This document shows, in pieces, positions 8,753 to 31,795 of a DNA stretch of 41,577 nt. Made by a program: the position numbers and the translations under genes. Numbering within the stretch: position 1 is the stretch's first letter; the number at the start of each line of letters is the position of its first letter. The notes beneath the pieces were generated by a model. The model made no database searches and was not told the origin of the DNA. It worked only from the letters and a program-made list of their open reading frames with translations. This stretch comes from Desulfobacterales bacterium (GTDB lineage: Bacteria; Desulfobacterota; Desulfobacteria; Desulfobacterales; UBA11574). The stretch covers positions 1 through 41,577 of the forward strand of contig JAHECI010000003.1 in assembly GCA_024641825.1 (NCBI GenBank), written 5' to 3'.

Positions 8753-8828
8753 TGCATAGGCATGTTTTCGGACGGACGGATCCCGATGCATGCGGCCATT
8801 TCTTTGCCCTTAATGAATGTTTTACCGG

Positions 8829-8844
8829 TGGCACCGATATTGCT
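8829..8844 (+). promoter_or_regulatory. Sigma-54 (-24/-12) promoter TGGCAC-N5-TTGCT
   Basis: tggcac (8829-8834), cgata, ttgc (8840-8843) is an exact match to the consensus TGGCAC-N5-TTGC. It lies between the divergent bEBP gene and the ABC-transporter operon. Confidence 0.8.
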
Positions 8845-8964
8845 TAGGAAGAGTCAATTACCGTTGGGGCCGAAATGGCTAAGGGCTCTGTTGTGACGAT
8901 TCCTTGTCAAAAGATTTATTTCAGACCTGTTGAACAGACCTATTTTTATAGAGGGGGGAAACTG

Positions 8965-9774: not shown

Positions 9775-9784
9775 GAGAGTGAAT

Positions 9785-12363: not shown

Positions 12364-12380
12364 AGGGAGGCAAAGGGCCA

Positions 12381-13262: not shown

Positions 13263-13264
13263 CA

Positions 13265-14335: not shown

Positions 14336-14388
14336 ACAGGTCCTTTTATTCACTCAAAGCCGTATCATTTAAAAAGGAGGTTTTAGAA

Positions 14389-15636: not shown

Positions 15637-15653
15637 ACCGTCTGAATGTGATT

Positions 15654-15681
15654 CGGGTGGCGAGGGGGTCCTCGCCGCCCG
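15654..15681 (+). other. GC-rich 12-bp-stem intercistronic hairpin after the binding-protein gene (mRNA stabiliser or partial terminator)
   Basis: cgggtggcgagg-gggt-cctcgccgcccg. No U-tract follows it. Confidence 0.45.
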
Positions 15682-15735
15682 GATCAAGACTGAAATCGAA
15701 AAATCAAACCAGAGAGGGTTAAGGAGAATGCCTTG

Positions 15736-17037
15736 ATGAATGACGGCATCGCATCGAACACAGAATTCCGGCCAAGTCGGTGGGGACGTCTTTCGGCGGA
15801 CGAACACGCCGGCATCCAGATGGAAAAGCTGCGGGATCTTTTGATCTATGCGCATAAAAACAGCCCGTTTTACCGCAGGCGCTTCCATGATGCCGGGTTC
15901 AATCCCGAGCAGGTAAAGGCAACCGAAGATCTTTTGGAAAGGGCCCCTTTTATCAATAAAACCGTTTTAATGGACGAACAGGCCAAAAAACCACCTTTTG
16001 GAGACCTTTTGACCGTTGCCCAAGAAGATCTGGTGCGGTTGTACTACTCGCCCGGACCATTGCTTATCATTTTCAGTCACGCGGACTTGAACGCCTATAT
16101 CCAAAGAGCCGCCAACGGGCTTTACCATGCGGGTGCCAGGGCCGGCGATATCGTGAACATCTCTTTTAACTATAACTGGGTGGGGGCCGGGACACAGCAC
16201 GATGACGCATATCGCAGGATCGGGTGTGCGGTATTGCCGGGGGGCGCCGGCATGAGCGAGACCCATATCGACCTCATGAAGCTGACCCGAACGACCGTTT
16301 TATCGGCCTTTCCCACCTATGCCATCCGTCTGGCCGAAACAGCAAAAAAAATGGGTTTGGATCCTGCACGGGATCTGAATTTGCGTTTGATCATCATCGT
16401 GGGGGAGATACGGTCGGACGAAGATAAAAAGCAGATCGGCGATCTTTTCGGGGCCCAGGTCCGGGAAATGTATGTCGGCAATGAAATGGGATTTGTCGGC
16501 TCGGAATGCCCCCACGGCGGAGGCATGCACCTTTTCAGCGACACCCTGGTAGAGGTCATTGACCCCCGGACCGGCCGTCGGGTCGATCCGGGTCAACCCG
16601 GAGAGATTGTGACCACCGATCTGCACCGGCGGGCCATGCCCATAATCAATTACCGCACCGGCGATATTACCGAAGGGCTGATCTATGAAGAATGCCCGTG
16701 CGGCCTGAAGCGACCCAGGATGAAGAGAATACTGGGACGTGTCGGCGACATCCCCAGAGTAAAAGGCATGTTCATTCCGCCCCGGCGCATCGAGCTGGTT
16801 TTGGGAAAATATCAGGATTTGGGCCGGTACCAGGCCGTTGTGGACAGACCGGAAAAAACGGATCGTTTTACCATCAAGATCGAATGCCCCCCGGCCCGCC
16901 AAAAAGACGATTTTCGAAAAACACTGATTGAAAATTTCAAGGTTTCCCTTGGTATTTTGCCGGAGGTGCAATGGTTGCAGCCCGGTACAATTGCCGAGGA
17001 CGATCGAACACTTATGGATTTACGAAAGATTAACTGA
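15736..17037 (+). CDS. Phenylacetate-CoA ligase (PaaK)/coenzyme F390 synthetase family adenylating enzyme
   Basis: The N-terminus ...QMEKLRDLLIYAHKNSPFYRRRFHDAGFNPEQV...LERAPFINKTVL is typical of PaaK-like ligases. An RBS (aaggag) lies 9 nt upstream of ATG 15736. Confidence 0.8.
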   Translation: MNDGIASNTEFRPSRWGRLSADEHAGIQMEKLRDLLIYAHKNSPFYRRRFHDAGFNPEQVKATEDLLERAPFINKTVLMDEQAKKPPFGDLLTVAQEDLVRLYYSPGPLLIIFSHADLNAYIQRAANGLYHAGARAGDIVNISFNYNWVGAGTQHDDAYRRIGCAVLPGGAGMSETHIDLMKLTRTTVLSAFPTYAIRLAETAKKMGLDPARDLNLRLIIIVGEIRSDEDKKQIGDLFGAQVREMYVGNEMGFVGSECPHGGGMHLFSDTLVEVIDPRTGRRVDPGQPGEIVTTDLHRRAMPIINYRTGDITEGLIYEECPCGLKRPRMKRILGRVGDIPRVKGMFIPPRRIELVLGKYQDLGRYQAVVDRPEKTDRFTIKIECPPARQKDDFRKTLIENFKVSLGILPEVQWLQPGTIAEDDRTLMDLRKIN

Positions 17038-17047
17038 GGATGCCCGG

Positions 17048-17482
17048 ATGAATACTGTGAATGAAATAACAGAATTATTGGACCAAAAACCGGCTGTCTG
17101 GACGGCGGATCCCGGCAAGGCTCCCTGTCTGATCGGGACCCGCTGTAAACGTTGTCGTCACTTCCACTTTCCGCCGATCAATCGCTGTACGCAATGTCTG
17201 AGCATTGAACTGGAGAATGTTCCTTTCGGGAGAAGCGGAACATTATACTCCTATTCGGTAATTCAGATCTCTTCGCTGGGCTTCAAGGCGCCGTATGCCG
17301 TCGGATATATCGATTTGGATGAAGGTGTGCGCCTGTTGGCCCCGATCGTCGAGTGGCAGGACGCCGGGCTGAGCAGCGGGAAAAAAATGGAACTGGTTGT
17401 CGGCAAGGTTAAACAAGACGCCGACGGCAATGATGTTGAGGGGTATATGTACCGACCCCAAAAAAACGATGGAAAAAATTAG
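17048..17482 (+). CDS. DUF35-type Zn-ribbon/OB-fold protein (thiolase partner)
   Basis: CKRCRHFHFPPINRCTQC zinc ribbon followed by an OB-like segment (GTLYSYSVI...VGYIDLDEGVRLLAPI). It sits directly upstream of a thiolase-like gene. Confidence 0.75.
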   Translation: MNTVNEITELLDQKPAVWTADPGKAPCLIGTRCKRCRHFHFPPINRCTQCLSIELENVPFGRSGTLYSYSVIQISSLGFKAPYAVGYIDLDEGVRLLAPIVEWQDAGLSSGKKMELVVGKVKQDADGNDVEGYMYRPQKNDGKN

Positions 17483-17632
17483 GTCTGCGGCCGGAGGCCC
17501 TTTGCCAAAGATGCGGACCGGGCAGATTCGTTTTCTGCCGGGAAGCTCCTTGGGGGCCCTTGGACGAAAATTGGCGAAATTTCATGGCCGAAGATCCGTA
17601 TACATAAATTTATATCCGAATGCGAGGTTACA

Positions 17633-18799
17633 ATGCGGAAAATAGCTATCTGTGGGGCAGGCATGACTCCCTTTGGGAAATTTCCTCATGCCAGTATCAA
17701 AGAAATAGGGCGTCAGGCGGTTTGGAAAGCACTTTTAGATACCCGTCTCAAGCCGTCGGACATCCAGAAAGTATACTGCGGAAATGCGCTGTCAGGGGCG
17801 ATAACCGGTCAGGAAATGATTCTGGGCCATGTTATCATGAGGGCCGCGGGGTTGACCGGAATTCCGATATTGACCATTGAGAACGCCTGCTCGAGCGGTT
17901 CATCGGCATTTACCGAGGCGTGCATGGCGGTGGCCGGTGGGTTTTACGACCGGGTCCTTGTCTTGGGTGTTGAAAAACTTACCGGGAGCAACACCGCCCA
18001 TGTCGTCAAGGCCATGTCCAGCGCAACGGACGTGGAACTGGAGGCTGGATACGGGTTGATTTTCCCAAGTGCATTTGCCCTGCTGGCCCGCAAACATATG
18101 GAAGTTTACGGGAGTACCAGCAGGGACCTGGCCGCCATTTCGGTGAAGAATCACAACAACGGCGCGCTCAACCCCAACGCGCAACACAAGGACAAGTACA
18201 GTATCGACGATATCTTAAATTCCCGAATGATCGCGGATCCCTTGCGGCTGTTGGACTGCTGCCCGATCAGTGACGGGGCGGCGGCCGTCATTATCTGCCC
18301 GGCGGATCAGGCCAAAAAATATACCGACCAGCCGGTGTATGTCGCCGCCAGCGTGATGACGACGGGTCAATACTTGCAAACCAATGACCTCTGCAGCTTT
18401 CCCGTAAACCAACGGGCCGCCCAACAGGCTTACGAAATGGCGGGAATCGGCCCGGAGGATGTCGATCTGGCAGAGGTTCACGATTGTTTTACCGTCGCAG
18501 AACTCCTTCATTATGAAGATCTCGGGTTCTGTGCAAAGGGAGAAGGGCCGAAGCTTGTGCGCGAGGGAGCAACCGAGCTGGGAGGCCGTATTCCCGTAAA
18601 TGTTAGTGGAGGATTATTGGCCAAAGGACACCCTGTCGGTGCCACCGGGGTCGCCCAGTTGGTGGAAATCACCAGTCACCTGCGCGCCAATGCCGGGGAG
18701 CGGCAAGTCCATGGGGCCAAGGTCGGTTTGACCCTGTGTAACGGCGGGTTTATGCAGGGAGAACCCTGTGTTGCGACCGTAAATATCCTCAAGCGTTAA
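17633..18799 (+). CDS. Thiolase-like protein (SCP-x / non-specific lipid-transfer-type thiolase family)
   Basis: 388-aa ORF with ENACSSGSSAF (nucleophile Cys), HDCFT, GHPVGATG and CNGGG. Confidence 0.85.
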   Translation: MRKIAICGAGMTPFGKFPHASIKEIGRQAVWKALLDTRLKPSDIQKVYCGNALSGAITGQEMILGHVIMRAAGLTGIPILTIENACSSGSSAFTEACMAVAGGFYDRVLVLGVEKLTGSNTAHVVKAMSSATDVELEAGYGLIFPSAFALLARKHMEVYGSTSRDLAAISVKNHNNGALNPNAQHKDKYSIDDILNSRMIADPLRLLDCCPISDGAAAVIICPADQAKKYTDQPVYVAASVMTTGQYLQTNDLCSFPVNQRAAQQAYEMAGIGPEDVDLAEVHDCFTVAELLHYEDLGFCAKGEGPKLVREGATELGGRIPVNVSGGLLAKGHPVGATGVAQLVEITSHLRANAGERQVHGAKVGLTLCNGGFMQGEPCVATVNILKR

Positions 18800-18824
18800 A
18801 TTAATTATTTTATAGGAGGAAGAA

Positions 18825-20249
18825 ATGATAGATGAAAAATTAAAAAGCGAACTGGAAACAATTCTTGGCAAAGGACACGTTTCCCTTTCAAAAATGGATC
18901 TGGAGGCCTATGCCTTTGTTCAGGGCACTGGAGCTGACATCATCGGGCATAAGCTTGCGGATGTCGTGGTTTTACCCGCCAACGCCTTGGAAGTGTCTGA
19001 AGTGGTGAAACTGGCCAACCGATATAAATTACCGGTGGTTCCCCAAGGTGCCAGAACCAACAGTTGCGGAATGAATGTGGCCCACAAGGGCGGCATTGTC
19101 ATGGACATGTCTCGACTGAACCAGGAGATGTCCATCGACGAAGACAACATGGTCGTGGTTGCCGATGCCGGATGTTCGGTTTACTGGGTGATGCGCGAGC
19201 TCGACAAGAAAGGCTTGCGGTTTCCGTTCATGCCGCTGTATACGCCCGGGCCCCAGATCGGTTCGGCGGTGGCCTGCAACGTCACCGGTAATTATATGAC
19301 CCGCTACGGTTCCATGGGAGACAACATCGTTGGCCTGGAAGTCGTGATGCCCACCGGGGAGATCATTACCTTTGGTCCCGGTGCAATGGATACCGGCTGG
19401 GGCCACTACCAGAGATATGTGGGCGGCCCGGACCTTATCGGATTGTTCGTAAATGCATCCGGAGCCATGGGTATCGTAACCAAAGTCGCCGTCCGGATCA
19501 AGCCCAAGGTCGAACACGAAAAAATTCTGTGTTACGGCTGGAAGCGGGAACATGCCAAAGAACTGACCGAAGCCATGTACGGGATGCAGCGACGGTTTGT
19601 CTATGACTTTTTCCTGATCAACAAGTGGAACTATCATTCGGCCGAAGTACAGGGCAAGATTGCGCTGCCGGATGACGTGCATTTTATCGCCATGGTCAGC
19701 GTGGACGGTGCCAGTGAAATTGAGTTGAATCTGGAAGTAGAGCGTATCGTGAAGATCGCCGAAGACAACAAAGCCATCGACCTGGCCGACCTGGGCATCC
19801 TGACCATGGGCGCACCGCATTATCGGATATGGCTGAGCGTTTCCAAGTGGATGCAGCGTATCGAAGCCACCTATTTCTGGTGTCCGGTCAAAAAATTTCC
19901 GGAGATCTATGACATATGGGAAGACGTAACGCGCAAATACAATTTTTGGGACGGCGAACATTGCCCGGCCTGGTTTTCTTTCCACGGCCGCAACACCTGC
20001 AACCCGTATCCCATGCTGGCCAAGGCCAATCCCACCGATCCCCATGAGCTGGAACAGATGAAACTGTGGTGGGACGAGCTCAACATCAAACTTTGTGCGG
20101 CCGGATGCGTTCAGTACAATCTCGGCGACGCTTTCCCTGATCAGAATTACGAGGTCCTGGGGGAACAATGGAACCTGACCAGGAAGATAAAGAAGTTCCT
20201 CGATCCCAATATGATTATGAATCCATCAAGGACATACGGAGGCTTATAA
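18825..20249 (+). CDS. FAD-binding (PCMH-type) oxidoreductase, GlcD/D-lactate dehydrogenase family
   Basis: 474-aa ORF with the pattern VVLPANALEVSEVVKLANRYKLPVVPQGARTNSCG of FAD_binding_4 domains. An RBS (aggagg) precedes it. Confidence 0.8.
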   Translation: MIDEKLKSELETILGKGHVSLSKMDLEAYAFVQGTGADIIGHKLADVVVLPANALEVSEVVKLANRYKLPVVPQGARTNSCGMNVAHKGGIVMDMSRLNQEMSIDEDNMVVVADAGCSVYWVMRELDKKGLRFPFMPLYTPGPQIGSAVACNVTGNYMTRYGSMGDNIVGLEVVMPTGEIITFGPGAMDTGWGHYQRYVGGPDLIGLFVNASGAMGIVTKVAVRIKPKVEHEKILCYGWKREHAKELTEAMYGMQRRFVYDFFLINKWNYHSAEVQGKIALPDDVHFIAMVSVDGASEIELNLEVERIVKIAEDNKAIDLADLGILTMGAPHYRIWLSVSKWMQRIEATYFWCPVKKFPEIYDIWEDVTRKYNFWDGEHCPAWFSFHGRNTCNPYPMLAKANPTDPHELEQMKLWWDELNIKLCAAGCVQYNLGDAFPDQNYEVLGEQWNLTRKIKKFLDPNMIMNPSRTYGGL

Positions 20250-21439
20250 TGGATATAAACGCAGTTAAAGACCGAACCCATCGTTGTGTAGGCTGCTCCC
20301 AATGTTTTGGAACCGGCCCCTATTTGCCATTTGCCGACGGTGAACAGACGGTTTCAACCTGGAAGTGCCCGACGTTGGAGTACTATAAGTTTTTTACCAA
20401 TACGGCGCGGGCCAAGGCATTTTTTGCCAGAGAGCTGGTGCATGGAAAACTGGAAATCAATGAAGAACTGGAAAAAATATTTTTTTCCTGTCCGGATTGC
20501 GGATGTTGCGAACTGCTCTGCCCGCCGATTCCGCATATGTTCATCAGCCGGGCCATGAAAGCGGCCTTGTTTCAAAAAGGCCTGATACCCGAAGAATGTG
20601 TCGCCTTGAACGACAACATGCGGGAGAAGAAGAACCTTTTCGGGATTAAGAACGACAATCGGGCCAACTGGGCCAAAGATCTGGATTTGCCCAAGCAAGG
20701 CAAAGTGGTCTATTTTGCCGGATGCTACGGATCTTTCCGGCAGGTGAAGACCGCTTGGGCAACGGTGGCGCTGCTGCGAAAAGGCGGTATCAATCCGGCC
20801 TATTTGGCCGAAGAGGAGCAATGCTGCGGCCTGCATGCCGGTTTTTCGGGAGACATCGAGCTTGAACGGCGTCTGGCCCGGCATAATGTGGAGGCCCTAA
20901 AACGCGCCGGGGCCGAAACCGTGGTTTTTTCCTGTGCCAACTGTTATCGAACATTTTTTACGGATTACAAGGCACTGACCGGAGAAGAACTTCCTTTCAA
21001 GGTGGTCACCGCCGTTGAAATGGTAACTGAATTGATCGCCGCAGGGAAGATCGTATTCAAAAACGGGGAAAACGTTCGCACGACCCTTCACGATCCCTGT
21101 CACTTCGGCAAGCAACACATCGGCCATCGCCGCAACCTTTACGACGAGACCCGACAGATTATCAACAGTCTGCCCAACGTCGAGTTTGCGGAAATGGAAT
21201 ACAACCGACGCTGGTCGGCGTGTTGCGGCGGCGGCAATGATGTGACTTCCTCGGTCACACCGGAATTCACCGATTACCATTCCAGTAAGCGCTGCCGGGA
21301 AGCCCAGGGTGTGGCCGACGTATTGTTGACCCCCTGCGTGCGTTGCGTGAAAAACTTATCTGCGGCCGCTAAAAAACATGACATCGGTGTGGAGGTTAAA
21401 AGCCTGCTGGAGTTTGCGGCCGAAAGGCTTGAAAAGTAA
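20249..21439 (+). CDS. Fe-S protein with two 4Fe-4S motifs and two CCG domains (HdrD/GlcF-like)
   Basis: ATG 20249 overlaps the TAA of the FAD-oxidase gene (taatg). Motifs are CVGCSQC...CP, CPDCGCCELLCP, then FAGCYG...CCG...HDPCH...CCGGG. Confidence 0.8.
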   Translation: MDINAVKDRTHRCVGCSQCFGTGPYLPFADGEQTVSTWKCPTLEYYKFFTNTARAKAFFARELVHGKLEINEELEKIFFSCPDCGCCELLCPPIPHMFISRAMKAALFQKGLIPEECVALNDNMREKKNLFGIKNDNRANWAKDLDLPKQGKVVYFAGCYGSFRQVKTAWATVALLRKGGINPAYLAEEEQCCGLHAGFSGDIELERRLARHNVEALKRAGAETVVFSCANCYRTFFTDYKALTGEELPFKVVTAVEMVTELIAAGKIVFKNGENVRTTLHDPCHFGKQHIGHRRNLYDETRQIINSLPNVEFAEMEYNRRWSACCGGGNDVTSSVTPEFTDYHSSKRCREAQGVADVLLTPCVRCVKNLSAAAKKHDIGVEVKSLLEFAAERLEK

Positions 21440-21486
21440 CGAACAATACGCTAACCATTGGTTCATGGTTGCCAAGAACTGAAAAA

Positions 21487-21527
21487 AGCCCTGCCCGAAC
21501 ATTTATTGACATGTTCGGGTAAGGGCT
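21487..21527 (+). terminator. Stem-loop after the Fe-S gene (weak intrinsic terminator or attenuator)
   Basis: agccct-g-cccgaacat-ttattgac-atgttcggg-ta-agggct, followed by ttggttgggtcttggtttttt. The U-tract is interrupted. Confidence 0.4.
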
Positions 21528-21571
21528 TTGGTTGGGTCTTGGTTTTTTCTTAGCAAAAAAGGAGATGACGT

Positions 21572-23023
21572 ATGGGTATGATGACAGCCGAGCAATATGA
21601 AGAGAGCCTGAGGCGTTTGAACCTGAAAGTCTATATGTTTGGCGAGCGCCTGGAAAACGTGGTCGATCATCCGATTATTCGACCGTCTATGAACGCGGTT
21701 GCCAAGACGTACGAACTGGCACACCAGCCCGAATATGAAGATCTGATGACCGCCCGTTCTCATCTTTCGGGCCGCAAGATCAATCGATTCACCCACATTC
21801 ATCAGAGCCCGGAGGATTTGGTCAAAAAGAGCAAAATGGGCCGGCTCCTCGGGCGTGAGACCGGTTGTTGCTTCCAGCGGTGTGTCGGCATGGACGCTCT
21901 AAACGCGCTCTCCATCGTGACGTTTGATATCGATGCCAAATACGGAACCTCCTATAACCGGCGTTTTTTAAAATACCTCGAATTTGTTCAGGAAAAAGAT
22001 TTCACCTGTGACGGCGCCATGACCGACCCCAAAGGTGACCGAAGCCTGCCGCCGCATCAGCAAACGGATCCTGATCTTTACCTCCACGTGGTGGCGGAGA
22101 ACTCCGACGGGATTGTGGTCAGGGGTGCCAAGGCACATCAGACCGGTGCGGTCAATTCCCATGAAATCATCGTGATGCCGACCCTCGCCCTGAGAAAAGA
22201 GGACGAGGATTACGCGGTTTCCTTTGCGTTGCCCAGCGATGCCCAGGGGATTGTGTACATCGTCGGCCGCCAGCCCGGGGACACCCGCAGAATGGAAGGG
22301 GGGGACATCGACCAGGGGAATTCCTTTTTCGGCGGGCATGAGGCCCTGGTGGTATTTGACGACGTTTTCGTGCCCTGGGATCGGGTCTTTATGTACAAGG
22401 AATACGACTTTGCCGGCCAGCTGGTGGAAACTTTCGCCGCTTACCACCGGCAGAGTTATGCCTGCAAAGTCGGCGTGGGCGACGTCCTCATCGGGGCGGC
22501 CCAGACCATCGCCGAATTCAACCGGGTGGAAAGGGCTTCGCACATCAAAGATAAAATCGTTGAGATGAATCATTTAAACGAGACCCTCTTTTGCGGCTGC
22601 CTTGCCTGTGCATCGGAAGGTCGCCAGGAACCCAGCGGGACCTATCTGGTCGATACGCTCCTCGCCAACGTTCATAAGCACAATGTCACGCGGTTTCCTT
22701 ACGAGATCGCAAGGCTGGTCCAGGACATCGCCGGCGGGCTGATGGTGACCCTGGCGAGTGAAAAAGACTTTAAATCCGAAACCCCCGGAAAATGGCTCAA
22801 AAAATATTTAAAGGCCAACCCCCAGGTCGATACCGAACACCGCATTCGCATCCTACGGCTGATCGAAAACCTGACCCTGGGTAACGCGGCCGTGGGCTAT
22901 CTGACCGAATCCATGCACGGTGCCGGATCTCCCCAGGCCCAGCGCATCATGATAGCGCGCAAGGTCAACATGCCCGAAAAACAGAAGGCCGCCAGAAAAC
23001 TCTGCGGCATTGACCCAAAATAG
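21572..23023 (+). CDS. 4-hydroxybutyryl-CoA dehydratase/vinylacetyl-CoA isomerase (AbfD)-like enzyme of the HpaB superfamily
   Basis: 483-aa ORF. The N-terminus MTAEQYEESLRRLNLKVYMFGERLENVVDHPIIRPSMNAV and the Cys pair in GCCFQRCVGMDA resemble the [4Fe-4S] ligand region of AbfD. An RBS (aaggag) precedes it. Confidence 0.75.
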   Translation: MGMMTAEQYEESLRRLNLKVYMFGERLENVVDHPIIRPSMNAVAKTYELAHQPEYEDLMTARSHLSGRKINRFTHIHQSPEDLVKKSKMGRLLGRETGCCFQRCVGMDALNALSIVTFDIDAKYGTSYNRRFLKYLEFVQEKDFTCDGAMTDPKGDRSLPPHQQTDPDLYLHVVAENSDGIVVRGAKAHQTGAVNSHEIIVMPTLALRKEDEDYAVSFALPSDAQGIVYIVGRQPGDTRRMEGGDIDQGNSFFGGHEALVVFDDVFVPWDRVFMYKEYDFAGQLVETFAAYHRQSYACKVGVGDVLIGAAQTIAEFNRVERASHIKDKIVEMNHLNETLFCGCLACASEGRQEPSGTYLVDTLLANVHKHNVTRFPYEIARLVQDIAGGLMVTLASEKDFKSETPGKWLKKYLKANPQVDTEHRIRILRLIENLTLGNAAVGYLTESMHGAGSPQAQRIMIARKVNMPEKQKAARKLCGIDPK

Positions 23024-23284
23024 GTTTTAACCGTACAGTATTCTGAACTCTTGATCGGGGATTGTTAGCCTCCCAAGATAATTTTTAAAAAAACCGGTTC
23101 CAAAATATAAATCCGTTTCACAACCAACGGAAGTTGTTTTAAAAGGGCTTAATGGGCGATGTCCATCCGGTACTTTTTGCTGTTTTCTTGACAGTCCTGG
23201 AACGGTATGATAGAAAATATCATTGGTTGGAGAAATGTTGATTGATTTATTCAATACCATTAAACCAATTTTCAGGGGGGCATT

Positions 23285-23617
23285 ATGGACAAAAAAGATC
23301 TGAAAAAATTGCTTGCTTCTTTGGGCGTTGCCGGCTTGATCAGCATGGGCGGTATTACGCTTCCCGGAGCCCACGCGGGTAGCGGGTGAGGCGCCAAACC
23401 CAGTGCAGGTGGCACTGAAAAACAAGTCAAGCCTCCGGCCGGAAGTGGCTGAGGCGGTTCCAAAGGTGGCGCAGTTAGCGCTGAAGAGCAACAAAAGATG
23501 GAACAAATGAAGACCGAAGAGCAATCTGCAGAGGAAAAAGCCAAGAAGGCCGCAGAGGAAGAGGCAGAGAAGGTCAAGAAAAAAACCGGAAAAAGCGGCT
23601 GAAGTGGCAACAAATGA
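23285..23617 (+). CDS. Candidate selenocysteine-containing precursor peptide (110 codons; three in-frame UGA at 23387, 23450 and 23600)
   Basis: The single frame from ATG 23285 has no TAA or TAG before the terminal TGA at 23615-23617. The only three internal stops are TGA, in the contexts G-S-G-TGA-G, G-S-G-TGA-G and K-S-G-TGA-S. The N-terminus is signal/leader-like (MDKKDLKKLLASLGVAGLISMGGITLPGAHA). The gene lies directly upstream of a radical SAM/SPASM gene. Confidence 0.6.
23393..23417 (+). other. SECIS-like hairpin candidate downstream of UGA-1
   Basis: Either cagtg-caggtgg-cactg (23401-23417) or the alternative gcca-aa-cc-cagtgca-gg-tggc (23393-23413). A loop G/U lies ~16-22 nt after the UGA. 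This was folded by eye only. Confidence 0.35.
23467..23483 (+). other. SECIS-like hairpin candidate downstream of UGA-2
   Basis: (tg)gcgc-aguua-gcgc(tg); the loop G is ~24 nt after the UGA. Confidence 0.35.
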
Positions 23618-23634
23618 TCATGCAGGGTGCATGA
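23618..23634 (+). other. Perfect 7-bp hairpin tcatgca-ggg-tgcatga downstream of UGA-3 (SECIS-like)
   Basis: It starts 18 nt after the U of TGA 23600 and has a G-only loop. It also directly follows the terminal TGA at 23615-23617. Confidence 0.4.
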
Positions 23635-23661
23635 CGGAAATTATTGACGATCGGAAACCAA

Positions 23662-23700
23662 CAAGGGCCGGCAGCTTCGGATTGCCGGCCCTTGGCATTT
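23662..23700 (+). terminator. Intrinsic terminator/attenuator between the precursor peptide and the radical SAM gene
   Basis: 12-bp stem caagggccggca-gcttcggat-tgccggcccttg, followed by gcatttta. Confidence 0.5.
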
Positions 23701-23737
23701 TATATCGTTCAAACGGATTGAGGTCGGGGGAGTTTAC

Positions 23738-25321
23738 ATGTCCACGCATCGTTTCGAAACAGACTTTCGAAAGCGTTATCCAGTTTGTTTTGAACTCTTA
23801 CCGGATCTTGAAAAATATTTAGAAGGGGATGCGGCATTGTCCGAAGTTCTGGATCGGGATCCCGAAAGGTGCCGGCGTTATCCCTTTATCTTCGATCTGG
23901 CAAGAATCGAAGAATCAAGACATCGTCTCCTGAACTCTCCACCATCCCTGCCGAAAATGGTGACCCATCGCATGGTCAACCCGGCCCTTGAACTGCTGCC
24001 GGTGAGTTGGCAGCACCTGCCGGAATTGTTGTCCAATCCCGCCACAGTCCCGGAATCCGGCGACGGATATGTCCTCGTGTTGATTAGACCCGGAAAAAAG
24101 GGGGTCGAAGTTCGCAACGCCGAAGCCAGGGACCTTTTGGCGCTCAAGATTGTGGCTGAGGAGATCGACTCCCGAAAGGCCGCTTCCGAAGGCAATGTTA
24201 CGGTAGGGGCCATCGACAACGTTCTTTTTCGGGCTGAACAGCTCGGCCTGATCCTGACACCACCACCGGGCATCCGGCGTCCCCCAGAATTCCCGAAAGG
24301 TGAGATGGACGATCCTGTTTTTTTTTCGTCCTCGACCTTTACATTACAGTGGCACATTACCCAGACCTGCGACTTGGACTGCCGCCACTGTTACGATCGC
24401 AGCGATCGCGAAGCCATGACCCTCGAACAGGCACTGGGGGTGCTCGACGACCTTTATGATTTTTGCCGGGGATACCATGTGTTCGGTCAGGTATCCTTTT
24501 CCGGGGGTAATCCCATGCTTTACCCTCACTTTGATCGCTTATACAGCGAAGCGGTCGATCGGGGTTTTATGACGGCCGTTCTTGGTAATCCCATGCCCCG
24601 AAACCGTATCGAACGCATGCTTGCGGTACAAAAACCGGAGTTCTACCAGGTCAGCCTTGAGGGGCTGAAAGCGCATAACGATTTTATAAGAGGCCGCGGC
24701 CACTATGACCGGGTGCTGGATTTTTTAAAGCTATTGGGCGAGCTGGGAGTTTATCGGATGGTGATGCTCACCCTTACCCGGGACAACATGGACCAGGTCC
24801 TAAAGCTGGCGGATCGGCTCAAAGGTCTTACGGATTTGTTCACCTTCAACCGACTGGCGTCGGTGGGCCGGGGGGCTGAACTGTCGGCCGTACCTATTGA
24901 AAGGTTCCCCGATTTGTTAGCCCGGTATATGGATGCTGCTGAAACGAACCCCTGTATGGGATTTAAAGACAACTTGTTTAATCTCTTGCGGTGGCAGCGG
25001 GGGCTTCCCCTTGGCGGCGGCTGTGCAGGTCACGGCTGCGGGGCGGCCTTCAACTTCGTCGCCCTCCTGCCCGACGGCGAAGTACATGCATGCCGAAAAA
25101 TGCCCTCCCTGATCGGCAACATTTATCGGGAGCGCCTGAATGACATCTATCACGGAACCTCTGCCAGCCGCTACCGGGATGGATCGACGTCGTGCAGTGC
25201 CTGCCCTGTTCGTCCGGTTTGCGGGGGTTGTCCGGCGGTCAGTTATGGCTTTGGCCGCGATATCTTCAATGAGCTCGATCCCTATTGTTTCCGAAACCAA
25301 ACGGGAAACACATCCGCTTAA
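23738..25321 (+). CDS. Radical SAM/SPASM-domain peptide-modifying enzyme with a ~195-aa N-terminal extension
   Basis: The CxxxCxxC motif is CDLDCRHC (Cys211/215/218). The C-terminal auxiliary-cluster motifs are GGGCAGHGCGAAF...DGEVHAC and CSACPVRPVCGGC...DPYC. Confidence 0.9.
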   Translation: MSTHRFETDFRKRYPVCFELLPDLEKYLEGDAALSEVLDRDPERCRRYPFIFDLARIEESRHRLLNSPPSLPKMVTHRMVNPALELLPVSWQHLPELLSNPATVPESGDGYVLVLIRPGKKGVEVRNAEARDLLALKIVAEEIDSRKAASEGNVTVGAIDNVLFRAEQLGLILTPPPGIRRPPEFPKGEMDDPVFFSSSTFTLQWHITQTCDLDCRHCYDRSDREAMTLEQALGVLDDLYDFCRGYHVFGQVSFSGGNPMLYPHFDRLYSEAVDRGFMTAVLGNPMPRNRIERMLAVQKPEFYQVSLEGLKAHNDFIRGRGHYDRVLDFLKLLGELGVYRMVMLTLTRDNMDQVLKLADRLKGLTDLFTFNRLASVGRGAELSAVPIERFPDLLARYMDAAETNPCMGFKDNLFNLLRWQRGLPLGGGCAGHGCGAAFNFVALLPDGEVHACRKMPSLIGNIYRERLNDIYHGTSASRYRDGSTSCSACPVRPVCGGCPAVSYGFGRDIFNELDPYCFRNQTGNTSA

Positions 25322-27642: not shown

Positions 27643-28056
27643 ATGATTAAATTGGGGCCGACTTCTGATGAAATGAGAGCCATGTCGGGCGACGACATTT
27701 TTTTATCACGGTTGAAGCTTCTCATTATCATGGGCAAGGCTTATTTAAAAAATTGTCCCATTGGAAACTATCGCAAATCTGCCATCATCGAAAACGCTCA
27801 TCACGTGTTTTATCATTCCCTGCATTTGGCCTGTTTTGAACCTCAGTCGGGGATTACTTCCGATGTTGAGGCAGGAGAGGAACAAGAATTTCATAAAAGA
27901 GTTCAGCTTCTTGCAGTAATGGCTAAAGCAATGGCTGAAAACCGTCTGACAGAGAATCACAGAAAAAAGGCCCTTCAAGACAATTTAGAGAGAATCTGCG
28001 AAATATTGATATTCAGCTTCCACCTAAAAGGTTTTAATTTTCTTAAAGTTGCTTAG
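27643..28056 (+). CDS. Hypothetical protein (137 aa), helical, with no recognisable motif
   Basis: The ORF has a plausible RBS (gaaaggataattttATG) in an AT-rich region. I recognise no family. Confidence 0.4.
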   Translation: MIKLGPTSDEMRAMSGDDIFLSRLKLLIIMGKAYLKNCPIGNYRKSAIIENAHHVFYHSLHLACFEPQSGITSDVEAGEEQEFHKRVQLLAVMAKAMAENRLTENHRKKALQDNLERICEILIFSFHLKGFNFLKVA

Positions 28057-28356
28057 ACAATATGCTGTAAAAATTTTTCAAGAAAGCACCGTACTCCCCC
28101 TAGACTCGATTTCCATTCTGTAACACTTCTTCTGGCGTTGATCTCATTCTCAATTCGTTTCTCCCTGTGTGATAGTTTGTCACTTTGATCATTCTACCGC
28201 TATACGGGAGGTTTTTCCATGGAGAACCCCCTCAAACTCTGCATATTAAGCTCCTGACAGAACGTTGTTTTCTCTGCTGGGAGACTAAAATGCCTATTAA
28301 TAAGGTTATGCTCGGTGAAACTAAAAACAGCAGGTTAGACGGAAAGGAGGATTATT

Positions 28357-28965
28357 ATGTGGAAGAGATTATTCATTCTATCATTATCCATTGGGATGCT
28401 TTTTGCCATTACAGGTTGCAGTTCAGATTCAGATGCGGTTGCCCAGGCCAACGACAAAGAAGTTGATTGGCAAATCGCAGGAACGATCGTCCAGCTCCTG
28501 GATGTAGAATCCCTATTTTTCGGACCTCTTGAGGGAGGCCATTCTTTGATCAACATCTCCGCCAAAGGGTTACCTGATGATGCTGCAATCACTCTCCTGA
28601 GTGTATCAGGACCCTGTGCGGCGGATCCCCCCTTCCCCTGTGAGGAGGGTTATATTCCCGGTGCATGTTTTACCAAGAACGATATGGTCGCAATATTTCC
28701 TGACCAGTCCCTCTTATTCGCATCTATTCATGAGGATGGCGGCGTTTTGTGTTTGAAATTTAATCCAGATACTGGGCTGCCGGAGGATGGGACCTACTTC
28801 AAGATCAGAATGAATATAACTAAAGGCACAGGCAGTTTCGTTGGAGCTTCAGGAGTTCTAACCGGCGAAGGTCACGGTTATTTTATTAACAATCCTCCTG
28901 CCAACGATTTAACTTTAGTCGGCGAGGATGGGAATATGACAGGAACGATTATATTACCCGATTAA
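28357..28965 (+). CDS. Hypothetical lipoprotein (202 aa)
   Basis: RBS ggaaaggagg. The signal peptide carries a lipobox: MWKRLFILSLSIGMLFAITGC. Confidence 0.6.
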   Translation: MWKRLFILSLSIGMLFAITGCSSDSDAVAQANDKEVDWQIAGTIVQLLDVESLFFGPLEGGHSLINISAKGLPDDAAITLLSVSGPCAADPPFPCEEGYIPGACFTKNDMVAIFPDQSLLFASIHEDGGVLCLKFNPDTGLPEDGTYFKIRMNITKGTGSFVGASGVLTGEGHGYFINNPPANDLTLVGEDGNMTGTIILPD

Positions 28966-29123
28966 TGATAGAAATTCCTCGGGGAATATAATGTCCTTTT
29001 CTAAACCTTTTAAATCAGCAATACAAGAAAACCATCGAGGATTACGAAAAAATTTTTAATTTTTAGAACGAGGGTGATCCTGGCATCCTTGAGGTACCCT
29101 TACCCCATCAGATTTTACCTAAA

Positions 29124-29162
29124 AGAAGGCAGAGACTATTCGTCCTGCCTTCTCATTTTTTT
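29124..29162. terminator. Bidirectional intrinsic terminator between the convergent lipoprotein and yciH-like genes
   Basis: agaaggcag-N12-ctgccttct, followed by cattttttt on the + strand and by ctttt on the - strand. Confidence 0.6.
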
Positions 29163-29253
29163 CTTCCGACGCTGCATTGGGACAAACCGAAATATCCGGC
29201 GTATTTCATTTTCCCCTGAAGGGAAGGCCAGGTGCGTATTCTGGTGTTCAAGC

Positions 29254-29619
29254 TTAACCGCCGGAAAGTTTTACGGAATATCCTTGTTGTTTGATCTCTT
29301 TCAGAAGCGTGTCTCTGTGATCTCCTTGGATCATGATTACGCCGTCTTTTACGGTACCGCCGGAACCACAAAGACGTTTCAATGTTTTGGCGACGCGCTG
29401 AAGTTTATTATCGTTGAGCGGGAGACCGAAAACTGCCGTTACTGTTTTCCCCTTCCGGCCTTTGACCTCCCTTCTAATTCTTACAATTCCATCATCTGGG
29501 AATATGGATTGTTTCTCGACGGTTTTTTTCTTTTTGCAGGTGCATTTCGTAGTGGAGTGTCCGCAGGATGGGCAAATTCGACCTGATTCTGTTGAATACA
29601 CTAAACGGTTATTGCCCAT
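29254..29619 (-). CDS. yciH: SUI1/YciH-family translation initiation factor-like protein
   Basis: 121-aa ORF. RLVYSTESGRICP...DGIVRIRREVKGRKGKTVTAVFGL...LKRLCGSGGTVKDGVIMIQGDHRD...GYSVKLSGG aligns closely with E. coli YciH as I remember it. Confidence 0.85.
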   Translation of the reverse strand: MGNNRLVYSTESGRICPSCGHSTTKCTCKKKKTVEKQSIFPDDGIVRIRREVKGRKGKTVTAVFGLPLNDNKLQRVAKTLKRLCGSGGTVKDGVIMIQGDHRDTLLKEIKQQGYSVKLSGG

Positions 29620-31099: not shown

Positions 31100-31795
31100 T
31101 TAATTTAAGATGTAGGTCCGGTAGTCGAGAAGCCGGAAGGAAAGGGCCAAAACACCCGCAATCACGGGATCGTCGTGAATAATGACGAGTTCTTTGCTTT
31201 TGTTCAGTTTTTCAAGGTTCGCAAAGGTCCACAACTCCGCGTAGGGAAGGTTGATGGCATTTTCCACGTGCTCTTTTTCGTATTTGTCGGCCGGCCGGAA
31301 ATCAACCAGGACCGGATTTCTTAGGGCCTTGACCTGATCAAATCCGATGCTCCATTCGGCAGGGTTGTTCTGGTTGGCGAACATGATGTTTTGAAGAAGT
31401 TTGGAATCGGTATCAATGGAGAAGAAAGCGTCCATCCAGCCTTTCGTCCCCACCCGCATCCAATGGACTTTAGTGTAGCCTTGGGTTACCGCCAACCTGG
31501 CGGCGTGATAGGATTTCCATCAATTATTGTCGGCGCAATAGAAGACGATGGGGGTGTCTTTGTCCTCGGGAAGGGCTTCGACGTCGAACTCGGCCTCGGC
31601 CAGATCGAAATCGGTCCGCTTGTGATCTTTTGGGACATCCATGGTGATGTGGGCGGATCCGGCGGCGCGTCTCATGCACCAGTCGGTCATGTGAGTGAAG
31701 GCGGCGATGAGCATGCCTCCCTCGGACTGGATTTTGAGAGCCTCCTGCGGAGAAACGACCGCCACACCTTCGAGTGTTTCTGGTGTCGAACTCAT
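31100..31795 (-). CDS. Tandem rhodanese-domain protein with an in-frame UGA (candidate Sec) in the first active-site loop
   Basis: ORFs 31520..31885 and 31100..31495 are in the same frame and are separated only by TGA (31522-31520): ...PIVFYCADNN-U-WKSYHAARLAVTQGYTKVHWMRVGTKGW... The rhodanese domain is only complete when the TGA is read through. The start is ATG 31795 with RBS aaaggag. A hairpin lies 19 nt after the UGA. Confidence 0.65.
31489..31503 (-). other. SECIS-like hairpin ccgcca-GGU-uggcgg downstream of the rhodanese UGA
   Basis: 6-bp GC-rich stem. The GGU apical loop lies 25-27 nt after the U of the UGA (minus strand). Confidence 0.45.

What the first reader, a model, noticed from the sequence alone, without database searches (positions are those of the whole stretch)
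23285..25321. Hidden peptide gene with three Ser-Gly-UGA motifs directly upstream of a radical SAM/SPASM enzyme: candidate multi-selenocysteine RiPP system
No ORF is called on the + strand at 23285-23617 because TGA interrupts it. Reading from ATG 23285 in one frame gives 110 codons with no TAA or TAG. The only three internal stops are TGA, and all three share one local context: GGT AGC GGG TGA GGC, GGA AGT GGC TGA GGC and AAA AGC GGC TGA AGT. With U for TGA the translation is MDKKDLKKLLASLGVAGLISMGGITLPGAHAGSG-U-GAKPSAGGTEKQVKPPAGSG-U-GGSKGGAVSAEEQQKMEQMKTEEQSAEEKAKKAAEEEAEKVKKKTGKSG-U-SGNK. The N-terminus looks like a signal or leader peptide: a Lys-rich n-region, a hydrophobic core, then AHA. 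The gene for a 527-aa enzyme starts 120 nt downstream. It has the CxxxCxxC radical SAM motif (CDLDCRHC) and a C-terminal SPASM-type Cys cluster, the architecture of peptide-maturing rSAM enzymes. A second gene in this window, the rhodanese at 31100-31795, also needs UGA read-through, which argues that the host decodes UGA as Sec. From memory, an in-silico survey of radical SAM families proposed a 'selenobiotic' peptide/maturase pair (SbtA/SbtM). I cannot verify membership here, and to my knowledge no such system has been characterised biochemically. A precursor with three repeated SGU motifs would be unusual even within that idea.
Basis: partly seen in the sequence, partly recalled or inferred. 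Interest (0 to 1): 0.95.

Follow-up and report, generated by a model that had tools for sequence, protein, structure and literature searches.

The report
Known SbtA/SbtM selenocysteine peptide-maturase pair
This is a real but already catalogued two-gene system: a small secreted-looking peptide with three selenocysteine codons, next to the radical SAM enzyme SbtM that turns such residues into selenium-containing oxazole rings.

Summary
Window 23285-23617 (+) is a 110-codon frame broken only by three TGA codons, each after Ser-Gly. A 527-aa radical SAM/SPASM gene starts 120 nt downstream.

Both genes belong to curated families. The enzyme scores 647.5 bits on NCBIfam TIGR04082, SbtM (cut-off 350). 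The peptide leader scores 46-49 bits on TIGR04081, SbtA (cut-off 30.5).

Reading UGA as selenocysteine is well supported:
- 64 related loci keep the frame past the first TGA.
- 175 of 176 predicted Sec codons are followed by a covarying hairpin 21-29 nt downstream, with a G in the first two loop bases.
- Close relatives that lost the middle TGA also lost its hairpin.
- TGA ends 6 of 22 other genes in the window.
- A rhodanese gene in the window shows a Cys/Sec match with a homologue.

SbtM was characterised in vitro in 2021 as forming thio(seleno)oxazoles. Three Sec codons is the commonest layout among relatives (36 of 65).

New but modest points:
- The leader looks like an export signal peptide.
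- No transporter or protease gene is conserved nearby.
- The SbtM N-terminal module folds like TglI, the peptide-binding partner of MNIO enzymes.

The product and its biological role remain unknown.

The parts
23188..23215 (+). Candidate sigma-70 promoter of sbtA: -35 TTGACA (23188-23193), 17-nt spacer, TG-extended -10 TAGAAA (23210-23215)
   Evidence: Read from the sequence. TTGACA-N17-TGATAGAAA is kept in 11 close relatives, all Desulfobacteraceae-type. The tool's stricter consensus scan did not list it. Inferred, not tested.
23207..23223 (.). Inverted repeat ATGATA-gaaaa-TATCAT overlapping the -10 box; possible repressor operator
   Evidence: GATA-containing inverted repeats occur upstream of sbtA in 21 of 65 loci, against 6.3 +/- 2.4 in shuffles. 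The register differs between clades, so this remains a lead only.
23285..23617 (+). sbtA: 110-codon precursor with Sec at residues 35, 56 and 106; the stop is TGA at 23615-23617
   Evidence: Translation. TIGR04081 scores 46.3-49.1 bits against a cut-off of 30.5. The frame is conserved in 64 relatives.
23285..23377 (+). Leader or signal-peptide-like region, residues 1-31 (MDKKDLKK / LLASLGVAGLISMGG / ITLPGAHA)
   Evidence: This is the region covered by the TIGR04081 model. Across the 65 peptides the n-region averages 3.5 K/R, the best 12-residue hydrophobic stretch has mean KD 2.1, and the c-region reads LPGAHA. Three homologues have a lipobox Cys at this spot instead.
23387..23389 (+). Sec codon 1 (GSG-U-G)
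   Evidence: conserved in all 64 relatives.
23401..23417 (+). SECIS-type hairpin 1: CAGUGC-AGGUG-GCACUG; the loop starts at +21 from the U of UGA
   Evidence: 26.5 bits.
23450..23452 (+). Sec codon 2 (GSG-U-G)
   Evidence: Four close relatives have lost it.
23467..23483 (+). SECIS-type hairpin 2: UGGCGC-AGUUA-GCGCUG; the loop starts at +24
   Evidence: 21 bits. The hairpin has decayed in exactly those relatives that lost the UGA: best -2.2 to -3.2 kcal/mol, against -7.1 to -10.5 where the UGA is kept.
23600..23602 (+). Sec codon 3 (KSG-U-SGNK-stop)
   Evidence: A C-terminal SGU[GS] site is seen in most relatives.
23618..23634 (+). SECIS-type hairpin 3: UCAUGCA-GGG-UGCAUGA; the loop starts at +26. 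It lies in the 3' UTR and begins directly after the true stop codon
   Evidence: 20.4 bits. The stop UGA at 23615 has no room for a hairpin at the spacing seen at Sec sites.
23662..23704 (+). Intrinsic terminator or attenuator between sbtA and sbtM (13-bp G+C-rich stem plus a T tract)
   Evidence: Fold z-score -3.75, with 0 of 200 shuffles as stable. Top terminator-like site.
23738..25321 (+). sbtM: 527-aa thio(seleno)oxazole-forming radical SAM/SPASM maturase
   Evidence: TIGR04082 scores 647.5 bits against a cut-off of 350, E 1.5e-194. Pfam Radical_SAM covers residues 207-360 and SPASM 434-490. AlphaFold2 model pLDDT 89.8. Nearest solved folds are CteB, SkfB and SuiB.
23738..24247 (+). SbtM N-terminal module (residues ~1-170): a helical domain followed by an RRE-like domain of three strands and three helices; presumed SbtA-binding module
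   Evidence: No Pfam or PDB sequence hit. The AlphaFold2 model has pLDDT 87. Foldseek best match is 8hci_A/8hi7_A of the TglHI holoenzyme, E 5e-6, TM 0.60 over 202 columns. I take chain A to be TglI (helical NTD plus RRE CTD; PMC10880893), because no TIM-barrel protein appears among the other hits.
24368..24391 (+). CxxxCxxC radical SAM cluster motif (C211, C215, C218)
   Evidence: Sequence. All three Cys are invariant in 63 homologues.
25037..25288 (+). SPASM domain with auxiliary-cluster cysteines (residues 434-517)
   Evidence: PF13186 and TIGR04085. C429, C434, C452, C486, C489, C495, C498 and C517 are invariant.

Best explanation
The locus is an SbtA/SbtM cassette, a two-gene RiPP system of sulfate-reducing Desulfobacterota. 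The host here is a Desulfobacterales relative.

Shown here by computation:
- sbtA (23285-23617) encodes a 110-residue precursor.
- Its three in-frame UGA codons each sit in an S-G-UGA context.
- Each is followed about 20 nt downstream by a small hairpin of 6-7 bp with an A/C-G-G/U-type loop, the layout of a bacterial SECIS element.

Inferred from the known bacterial Sec pathway: SelB carrying Sec-tRNA(Sec) binds each hairpin in turn and inserts selenocysteine at residues 35, 56 and 106. The true stop UGA at 23615 is not recoded, because the third hairpin begins immediately after it.

Taken from published work on an orthologue (PMC9204691): SbtM uses its radical SAM [4Fe-4S] cluster and two SPASM auxiliary clusters to abstract hydrogen from the Cys/Sec beta-carbon. 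It does this in two SAM-dependent oxidations. The Gly-Sec unit cyclises to a 5-seleno-oxazole, with a loss of 4 Da per site. The predicted product here carries three such rings.

Inferred here:
- The SbtM N-terminal helical-plus-RRE module binds the conserved leader.
- The leader doubles as a Sec-translocon signal peptide and is cut after AHA (residue 31).
- This releases a 79-residue Lys/Glu/Gly-rich selenoprotein outside the cytoplasm.
- By analogy with thiooxazole-bearing bufferins, it most plausibly binds a soft metal.

The terminator between the two genes would keep precursor transcripts in excess over maturase transcripts.
For: Family membership:
- TIGR04082 scores 647.5 bits against a cut-off of 350. 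TIGR04081 scores 46-49 bits against 30.5.
- Radical_SAM and SPASM domains are present.
- The closest homologues are named SbtM or 'selenobiotic family peptide radical SAM maturase' by their sources.
- 535 species genomes encode a relative of SbtM.

Coding past the first UGA:
- 64 related loci (51-94% SbtM identity) keep the frame, the SG-UGA motifs and the KSGU[GS]xxK C-terminus.
- Cys replaces Sec at some sites: SGC in L015 and L073, and a C-terminal IEGC in many Desulfobulbaceae.

SECIS elements:
- 175 of 176 predicted Sec codons have a hairpin whose loop starts at +21 to +29, with a G in the first two loop bases in all cases.
- Mean hairpin energy is -9.35 kcal/mol, against -4.63 at other codons and -2.5 in shuffles.
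- 96.8% of cells are paired. There are 178 double-sided compensatory cells against 47.8 in shuffles (0 of 500 shuffles reach this). G-U pairs place the structure on the + strand RNA.
- Loss of the middle UGA in L001, L004, L005 and L007 coincides with loss of its hairpin.

Host decoding:
- TGA ends 6 of 22 family-supported genes in the window.
- The rhodanese UGA has a hairpin with the same loop type at +26, and a full-length homologue has Cys at that exact position.
- Thermodesulfobacteriota are among the most selenoprotein-rich bacteria (PMC13188914).

Chemistry: PMC9204691 and PMC11002830.

Export and function:
- The leader has the n-h-c layout of a signal peptide, and three homologues have a lipobox there.
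- No transporter or protease gene is conserved next to the pair.
- Bufferins set the precedent for a signal-peptide RiPP whose thiooxazoles bind copper.

Leader binding: fold match to TglI.
Against: - Sec insertion, ring formation, signal-peptide cleavage and metal binding have not been observed for this locus. According to the papers I could read, the mature product has not been seen for any native SbtA either.
- No selA/B/C/D gene or tRNA-Sec lies in the window, and the rest of the genome is not available.
- Each window hairpin taken alone is not unusually stable (z-scores +0.31, -0.60, +0.31). The case rests on comparison across loci.
- The hairpins used for the covariation count were pre-selected by a hairpin finder, which inflates the percentage paired.
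- The covariance model built from SbtA hairpins does not retrieve the rhodanese hairpin.
- The leader is far more conserved than ordinary signal peptides, so it may be mainly a recognition sequence.
- The published in-vitro work used a minimal synthetic peptide, so the role I assign to the leader and the N-terminal module is inference.
- That PDB chain A of 8hci is TglI is argued here, not verified.
Confidence: 0.9

Rival explanations
1. The UGAs are ordinary stops. Translation ends at 23387, giving only a 34-residue peptide (the leader), and the downstream 'frame' is untranslated RNA.
For: TGA is a normal stop codon in this genome. Each hairpin taken alone is not unusually stable. Bacterial Sec insertion is generally inefficient (my own knowledge), so some termination at each UGA is likely in any case.
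Against: The frame, the SG-UGA motifs and the C-terminal KSGU motif persist over 64 loci, with insertions and deletions that preserve the frame. Hairpins sit at a fixed distance after 175 of 176 such UGAs and are lost together with the UGA. A 34-residue product would contain none of the Gly-Cys/Sec sites that SbtM modifies.
Confidence: 0.03
2. UGA is read through as a standard amino acid (Gly, Trp or Cys), either by a reassigned genetic code or by near-cognate suppression, not as selenocysteine.
For: The context is glycine-rich (SG-UGA-G), so UGA read as Gly (genetic code 25) would give a plausible-looking sequence.
Against: 6 of 22 family-supported genes end in TGA, and long ORFs match full-length profiles under table 11, so TGA is not a general sense codon. 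The relatives are all Desulfobacterota. SECIS-type hairpins covary with the UGAs. Cys, not Gly or Trp, is what replaces UGA at equivalent sites, and Cys is the residue SbtM modifies.
Confidence: 0.03
3. The real gene is one of the antisense ORFs (23272-23613 or 23027-23524, minus strand), or the region is non-coding.
For: Both minus-strand ORFs are open (113 and 165 aa). An antisense ORF recurs in 44 loci.
Against: Neither has any family hit, and their translations are low-complexity. The antisense frame shares its wobble position with sbtA, the classic shadow frame. The + strand matches a curated family above its cut-off. G-U pairs in the hairpins work only on the + strand RNA.
Confidence: 0.01
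4. Same genes and chemistry, but a different biological role. The mature peptide would be a secreted antimicrobial (the 'selenobiotic' or 'selenobacteriocin' idea), or a redox-active extracytoplasmic selenoprotein, rather than a metal binder.
For: The family was originally named on the bacteriocin idea and is still listed as 'selenobacteriocin' (PMC13188914). Selenols are strongly redox-active. Published work states that the product and its function are unknown.
Against: No immunity, ABC-exporter or protease gene is conserved beside the pair. The core is long (79 residues), highly charged and variable outside the Sec sites, unlike typical bacteriocins. The only thiooxazole peptides whose function is covered in the papers I read, the bufferins, bind copper.
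Confidence: 0.3

Closest known systems
SbtA/SbtM thio(seleno)oxazole RiPP system (NCBIfam TIGR04081/TIGR04082; predicted by Haft & Basu 2011; SbtM characterised in vitro by Lewis et al. 2021, Biochemistry 60:3347)
   Same: Both HMMs score above their curated cut-offs. The gene order is the same: peptide, then maturase. The Gly-Sec motif is followed by SECIS-type hairpins. The enzyme has CxxxCxxC plus SPASM. The taxonomic range is the same (Geobacter and Desulfobacterota).
   Different: Nothing essential differs. The 2026 selenoproteome review lists the family with 2 Sec and motif SGUG. This copy has 3 Sec (SGUG, SGUG, SGUS), which my sample shows is the commonest layout in Desulfobacterales and Desulfobulbales.
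Bufferins (BufA with MNIO BufB and DUF2063-RRE partner BufC)
   Same: The precursor carries a Sec-pathway signal peptide and is large for a RiPP. Cys is converted to a 5-thiooxazole. There is no dedicated exporter. If the fold match holds, the peptide-recruiting module is an MNIO-partner-type helical domain plus RRE.
   Different: The catalyst is an O2-dependent multinuclear iron enzyme, not a radical SAM enzyme. It acts on Cys, not Sec. No MNIO, DUF2063 or DoxX gene is present here. SbtA is not a member of this family; the resemblance is functional.
CteB/SCIFF, SuiB and SkfB radical SAM/SPASM RiPP maturases (PDB 5wgg, 5v1t, 6efn)
   Same: Best sequence and fold matches among solved structures. 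All share an N-terminal peptide-binding domain, a radical SAM barrel and a SPASM domain with two auxiliary clusters.
   Different: Those enzymes make thioether or C-C cross-links. SbtM oxidises the Cys/Sec side chain and forms an oxazole. Sequence identity is only 16-21%.
Anaerobic sulfatase-maturing enzyme (anSME)
   Same: According to PMC9204691, the first SbtM step resembles anSME chemistry: radical oxidation of a Cys beta-carbon to a thioaldehyde-like species by a SPASM enzyme.
   Different: anSME stops at formylglycine on a folded sulfatase. SbtM goes on to cyclise and oxidise a second time.
TglI, partner of the MNIO TglH (PDB 8hci/8hi7)
   Same: It is the only significant structural match to SbtM residues 1-198: a helical N-terminal domain followed by a three-strand, three-helix RRE.
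   Different: TglI is a separate subunit that docks on a TIM-barrel iron enzyme. Here the module is fused to a radical SAM enzyme. No sequence similarity is detectable.

Membership tests
SbtM (TIGR04082, thio(seleno)oxazole modification radical SAM maturase) | Scores above the curated equivalog cut-off over the full length | tested here: met
   647.5 bits against a cut-off of 350, E 1.5e-194, residues 29-518 on profile positions 23-516 of 516.
SbtM (TIGR04082) | CxxxCxxC radical SAM motif plus a C-terminal SPASM Cys cluster | tested here: met
   C211/C215/C218. PF04055 scores 50 bits, PF13186 31.8 bits and TIGR04085 41.6 bits. The Cys residues are invariant in 63 homologues.
SbtM (TIGR04082) | Encoded next to an SbtA precursor gene | tested here: met
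   sbtA ends 120 nt upstream on the same strand. The same arrangement holds in at least 64 of 80 related loci.
SbtM (TIGR04082) | Converts Gly-Cys/Sec to a thio(seleno)oxazole (-4 Da, absorbance near 304-313 nm) | not testable with these tools
   Known only for the characterised orthologue (PMC9204691).
SbtA (TIGR04081, thio(seleno)oxazole RiPP precursor) | N-terminal leader matches the family model above its cut-off | tested here: met
   46.3 bits for the full peptide and 49.1 bits for residues 1-34, against a cut-off of 30.5; profile positions 1-27 of 27.
SbtA (TIGR04081) | In-frame UGA in an S/G-G-U-G context | tested here: met
   GSGUG, GSGUG and KSGUS. The motif SGUG is listed for the family in PMC13188914.
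SbtA (TIGR04081) | Selenocysteine is actually incorporated at the UGA codons | not testable with these tools
   Needs 75Se labelling or mass spectrometry.
Bacterial SECIS element | Stem-loop a fixed short distance after the UGA, with a conserved G in the apical loop (criteria recalled from bSECISearch, Zhang & Gladyshev 2005) | tested here: met
   Loop starts in the window are at +21, +24 and +26. Across relatives, 175 of 176 sites have such a hairpin and all have a G in the first two loop bases. Covariation is 0 of 500 shuffles. The hairpin is lost together with the UGA.
Bacterial SECIS element | Bound by SelB | not testable with these tools
   No selB gene in the window. Rfam has no matching model.
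Sec-pathway signal peptide | Positive n-region, hydrophobic h-region of 10-15 residues, and a c-region with small residues at -3 and -1 | tested here: inconclusive
   The layout fits (MDKKDLKK / LLASLGVAGLISMGG / ITLPGAHA-G), and three homologues carry a lipobox at that spot. No trained predictor was available, and cleavage and export are untested.
Bufferin / MNIO RiPP systems | An MNIO (DUF692) enzyme gene with a DUF2063-type partner gene beside the precursor | tested here: not met
   No such family appears among the ORFs of the window. Only the fold of the SbtM N-terminal module resembles an MNIO partner.

The most novel reading that the evidence does not exclude
SbtA would not be a bacteriocin. 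It would be the anaerobic, selenium-based counterpart of the bufferins: a small protein exported through the general Sec translocon, carrying three 5-seleno-oxazoles that chelate a soft metal outside the cytoplasm. Its radical SAM maturase would have recruited the same helical-plus-RRE recognition module that MNIO enzymes use as a separate partner. That would mean two unrelated oxidative catalysts converged on the same heterocycle using a shared substrate-binding module.
Probability: 0.3. Interest if true: 0.7.

Novelty: already known. Interest (0 to 1): 0.3.

Why it matters
The locus is a clean natural example of three selenocysteine insertions within 330 nt, each with its own SECIS element, one of them lying beyond the stop codon. 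As a kind of system it is already catalogued, and its enzyme chemistry is published. What remains open for the whole family is the mature product and its biological role. The signal-peptide-like leader, the lack of a dedicated exporter and the TglI-like recognition module together give a concrete, testable hypothesis: an exported seleno-oxazole metal binder. That hypothesis would link this family to the bufferin and methanobactin field.

Tried and rejected
- Rfam found nothing relevant, at gathering threshold on the whole window or at E<=10 on 23150-23760.
- ARAGORN found no tRNA-Sec in the window.
- No selA, selB or selD appeared among the ORFs scanned.
- The primary papers (Lewis 2021, PMC8935624; Haft & Basu 2011, PMC3133131) are not held. 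I relied on the senior author's perspective article and on two reviews.
- A search for a conserved third gene gave only antisense shadow ORFs and housekeeping synteny specific to one lineage: RsmE, Dtd, DHFR and an M16 peptidase fragment.
- The antisense ORFs have no family hits.
- Pfam and PDB sequence searches on the SbtM N-terminal 198 residues found nothing. Only the fold search did.
- The covariance model built from SbtA hairpins did not find the rhodanese hairpin, so it is not a general SECIS detector for this host.
- The inverted repeat at the promoter looks loosely like a Fur-family box by eye, but its register shifts between clades. I do not assign a regulator.
- A further literature search for SbtA function returned only unrelated 'SbtA' bicarbonate transporters.
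Full report
**Observation**

From ATG 23285 a single + strand frame runs 110 codons to TGA 23615-23617. Its only internal stops are TGA at 23387, 23450 and 23600, each preceded by Ser-Gly. No + strand ORF of 60 aa or more is listed there. A 527-aa ORF (23738-25321) starts 120 nt downstream. It carries CDLDCRHC (C211/C215/C218), a Pfam Radical_SAM domain (residues 207-360) and a SPASM domain (434-490).

**What it is**

Both genes belong to curated NCBIfam equivalog families.
- The enzyme scores 647.5 bits on TIGR04082, 'thio(seleno)oxazole modification radical SAM maturase SbtM' (cut-off 350, E 1.5e-194).
- Residues 1-27 of the peptide score 46-49 bits on TIGR04081, 'SbtA family thio(seleno)oxazole RiPP natural product precursor' (cut-off 30.5).

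The nearest database proteins are 56-94% identical. They come from Desulfobacterales and Desulfobulbales metagenome bins, and many are already named SbtM or 'selenobiotic family peptide radical SAM maturase'. A scan of one genome per species found 535 stretches encoding a relative. The best 80 loci are all Desulfobacterota.

**Is the frame translated through the UGAs?**

In the 80 loci I looked upstream of sbtM with TGA translated as U. A strict leader pattern recovered an SbtA gene in 64 of them. Several of the rest are cut by contig ends or have slightly different leaders that are visible by eye.

All 64 share the leader M-x-KKDLKKLLAxLGVAGLIS-GG-x-LPGAHA. All continue in frame through the first TGA, and most end in KSGU[GS]xxK. 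Insertions and deletions preserve the frame.

Some sites show Cys where others have Sec:
- L015 has SGC where L013 and L074 have SGU.
- L073 has an extra SGC repeat.
- Many Desulfobulbaceae peptides end in IEGC instead of the C-terminal SGU.

Counting Sec codons over the window and the 64 relatives gives 1 Sec in 2 peptides, 2 in 21, 3 in 36 and 4 in 6. Three Sec codons is therefore the modal layout, not an oddity.

**SECIS elements**

Each window UGA is followed by a small hairpin:

| Hairpin | Coordinates | Stem-loop-stem | Loop start |
|---|---|---|---|
| 1 | 23401-23417 | CAGUGC-AGGUG-GCACUG | +21 |
| 2 | 23467-23483 | UGGCGC-AGUUA-GCGCUG | +24 |
| 3 | 23618-23634 | UCAUGCA-GGG-UGCAUGA | +26 |

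Taken singly they are not unusually stable (z-scores +0.31, -0.60 and +0.31). The comparative signal is strong.
- 175 of 176 predicted Sec codons in the 65 genes have such a hairpin, with the loop starting at +21 to +29.
- All have a G in the first two loop bases.
- Mean energy is -9.35 kcal/mol, against -4.63 at other codon positions of the same genes and -2.5 for shuffled downstream sequence.

On 130 distinct hairpins aligned on the loop, 96.8% of cells pair. There are 178 compensatory double changes against 47.8 in column shuffles (0 of 500 shuffles reach this), and sliding the 3' partner abolishes pairing. One caveat: the hairpins were picked by a hairpin finder, which inflates the percentage paired.

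One covarying pair joins a synonymous Ser third-codon position (U/C) to a Thr/Ala first-codon position (A/G). The amino acid changes while the base pair is kept. This points to RNA structure as the selected feature. It also means the recurrent S-A-G-G-T and A-V-S-A stretches after each Sec are partly an imprint of the SECIS. G-U pairs place the structure on the + strand transcript.

The cleanest test is a natural experiment. Four close relatives (L001, L004, L005, L007) have replaced or deleted the middle UGA. In exactly those four the hairpin has decayed, to a best energy of -2.2 to -3.2 kcal/mol. The five sequences that keep the UGA keep a hairpin of -7.1 to -10.5 kcal/mol.

The true stop UGA (23615) lies directly in front of hairpin 3. 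It therefore lacks the spacing seen at every Sec site.

**Does the host decode UGA as Sec?**

TGA is an ordinary stop here. It ends 6 of 22 family-supported genes, which excludes a reassigned genetic code.

The rhodanese gene at 31100-31795 (-) has one in-frame TGA (31522-31520) in the motif YCADNN-U-WKSYH. It is followed by the hairpin GCCGCCA-GGU-UGGCGGU with the loop at +26. Its only full-length database homologue (P0121, 51% identical) has Cys at exactly that position. The other homologues are annotated only as C-terminal halves that begin just after the TGA, as expected when gene callers split a selenoprotein gene.

No tRNA-Sec or sel gene lies in the window, and the rest of the genome is out of reach. 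The machinery is therefore inferred from these two genes and from the taxon, which is among the most selenoprotein-rich (PMC13188914).

**How it works**

The enzyme chemistry is published for an orthologue. According to the senior author's account (PMC9204691) and a review (PMC11002830):
- SbtM removes 4 Da from a minimal peptide within the Gly-Cys (or Gly-Sec) motif.
- A 304-nm chromophore appears, red-shifted by 9 nm with Se.
- Deuterium moves from the Cys beta-carbon to 5'-deoxyadenosine.
- NMR indicates an oxazole that keeps a free thiol or selenol.
- The protein holds enough Fe/S for three [4Fe-4S] clusters.
- The working model is two successive SAM-dependent oxidations, passing through a thio/selenoaldehyde and an oxazoline.

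The same source says the precursor is longer than first thought, has 'at least two' Sec, and that the final product and its function are unknown.

Applied to this locus, I expect three seleno-oxazoles, at Gly34-Sec35, Gly55-Sec56 and Gly105-Sec106.

1. *N-terminal module of SbtM.* The first ~170 residues have no Pfam or PDB sequence match. They model confidently (pLDDT 87-90) as six helices followed by three strands and three helices. The only significant structural neighbour of residues 1-198 is chain A of the TglHI holoenzyme (8hci/8hi7; E 5e-6, TM 0.60 over 202 columns). TglI is described as a helical N-terminal domain of novel fold plus a C-terminal RRE that binds the leader (PMC10880893), and it is grouped with the DUF2063-like partners of MNIO enzymes (PMC12452194). 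I take chain A to be TglI because no TIM-barrel protein appears among the other hits, but I could not verify the chain assignment. The whole enzyme is closest to CteB, SkfB and SuiB.

2. *The leader resembles an export signal.* It has the layout of a Sec-pathway signal peptide: 3.5 K/R on average in the n-region, a 12-residue hydrophobic core with mean KD 2.1, then LPGAHA. Three homologues carry a lipobox Cys at that point (ISAC, LPGC, LTGC).

3. *No dedicated exporter.* No transporter, protease or immunity gene is conserved beside the pair. The flanking genes in the window are a catabolic operon and a divergent glycosyltransferase.

Together these suggest modification in the cytoplasm, export through the general Sec translocon, and cleavage after AHA. 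That would release a 79-residue, Lys/Glu/Gly-rich selenoprotein.

The precedent is the bufferins. [quoted passage not shown] I rate a metal-binding role as the most likely function, but only at about 0.3. The bacteriocin and redox alternatives are not excluded.

**Expression signals**

- A perfect -35 (TTGACA, 23188-23193) sits 17 nt before TGATAGAAA. This arrangement is conserved in 11 close relatives.
- It is overlapped by an inverted repeat, ATGATA-N5-TATCAT (23207-23223). Comparable GATA-containing repeats occur upstream of sbtA in 21 of 65 loci, against 6.3 +/- 2.4 in shuffles. Their register varies between clades.
- A strong intrinsic terminator (23662-23694, z-score -3.75) separates sbtA from sbtM. 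This is consistent with excess precursor transcript and read-through expression of the enzyme.

**Verdict**

The finding is real and correctly interpreted, but it is a member of a known, curated and biochemically characterised family. Two-, three- and four-Sec precursors are all common among its relatives. The value of this instance lies in its clean comparative evidence for three SECIS elements, and in the export/metal-binder hypothesis, which remains to be tested.

Noticed in passing
window 31100-31795 (-), TGA at 31522-31520: Two-domain rhodanese-like gene with one in-frame UGA in the motif YCADNN-U-WKSYH, followed by a SECIS-type hairpin (GCCGCCA-GGU-UGGCGGU, loop at +26). The full-length homologue P0121 has Cys at that position. 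Other homologues are annotated only as halves that start after the TGA. It scores below the cut-offs of the known rhodanese selenoprotein models (TsoB, LYCAU), so it may be a distinct CxxxxU form.
   Followed up: partly
L001, L004, L005, L007 compared with window 23450-23483: Close relatives that lost the middle Sec codon (changed to Ser or Pro, or deleted) have also lost the downstream hairpin, through changes such as GCGCUG to GCACUG or GUACUG. This is a natural knock-out that ties the hairpin to the UGA.
   Followed up: yes
L013 and L074 (SGUGASGUG); L015 (SGUGASGCG): Some SbtA genes have two UGA codons only 12 nt apart and a single hairpin. The first UGA then lies about 39 nt from the loop. 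L015 has Cys at the second position. Whether one SECIS serves both codons is unclear.
   Followed up: no
L047, L055, L077 (SbtA leaders): Three homologues have a lipobox-like Cys (ISAC, LPGC, LTGC) where the others have the AHA site. This suggests membrane-anchored lipoprotein versions of the same selenopeptide.
   Followed up: partly
window 23738-24247 (SbtM residues 1-170): The N-terminal module has no sequence-level family. [quoted passage not shown] This links radical SAM and MNIO peptide-modifying systems at the level of the recognition module.
   Followed up: partly
window 23188-23284: Conserved promoter (TTGACA-N17-TGATAGAAA) with an overlapping inverted repeat (ATGATA-N5-TATCAT, 23207-23223). 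Conserved 5'-UTR blocks (GTTGATTGATT and TTCAATACCATTA) are shared with close relatives. This may be an operator for an unidentified regulator.
   Followed up: partly
window 23662-23704: Very stable intrinsic terminator between the precursor and maturase genes (z-score -3.75), implying attenuated read-through into sbtM.
   Followed up: partly
window 5400-23023: Unrelated catabolic cluster upstream: a sigma-54 activator (5400-8576, minus strand), a Liv-type ABC transporter, acyl-CoA and phenylacetate-type CoA ligases, a BbsA/BbsB-like thiolase pair, GlcD-like and HdrD/GlpC-like proteins, and an HpaB-family protein scoring below its cut-off (possibly a 4-hydroxybutyryl-CoA-dehydratase type).
   Followed up: no
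window 27643-29586 and 33104-33727: Several ORFs of 137-207 aa with no hit in NCBIfam or Pfam.
   Followed up: no
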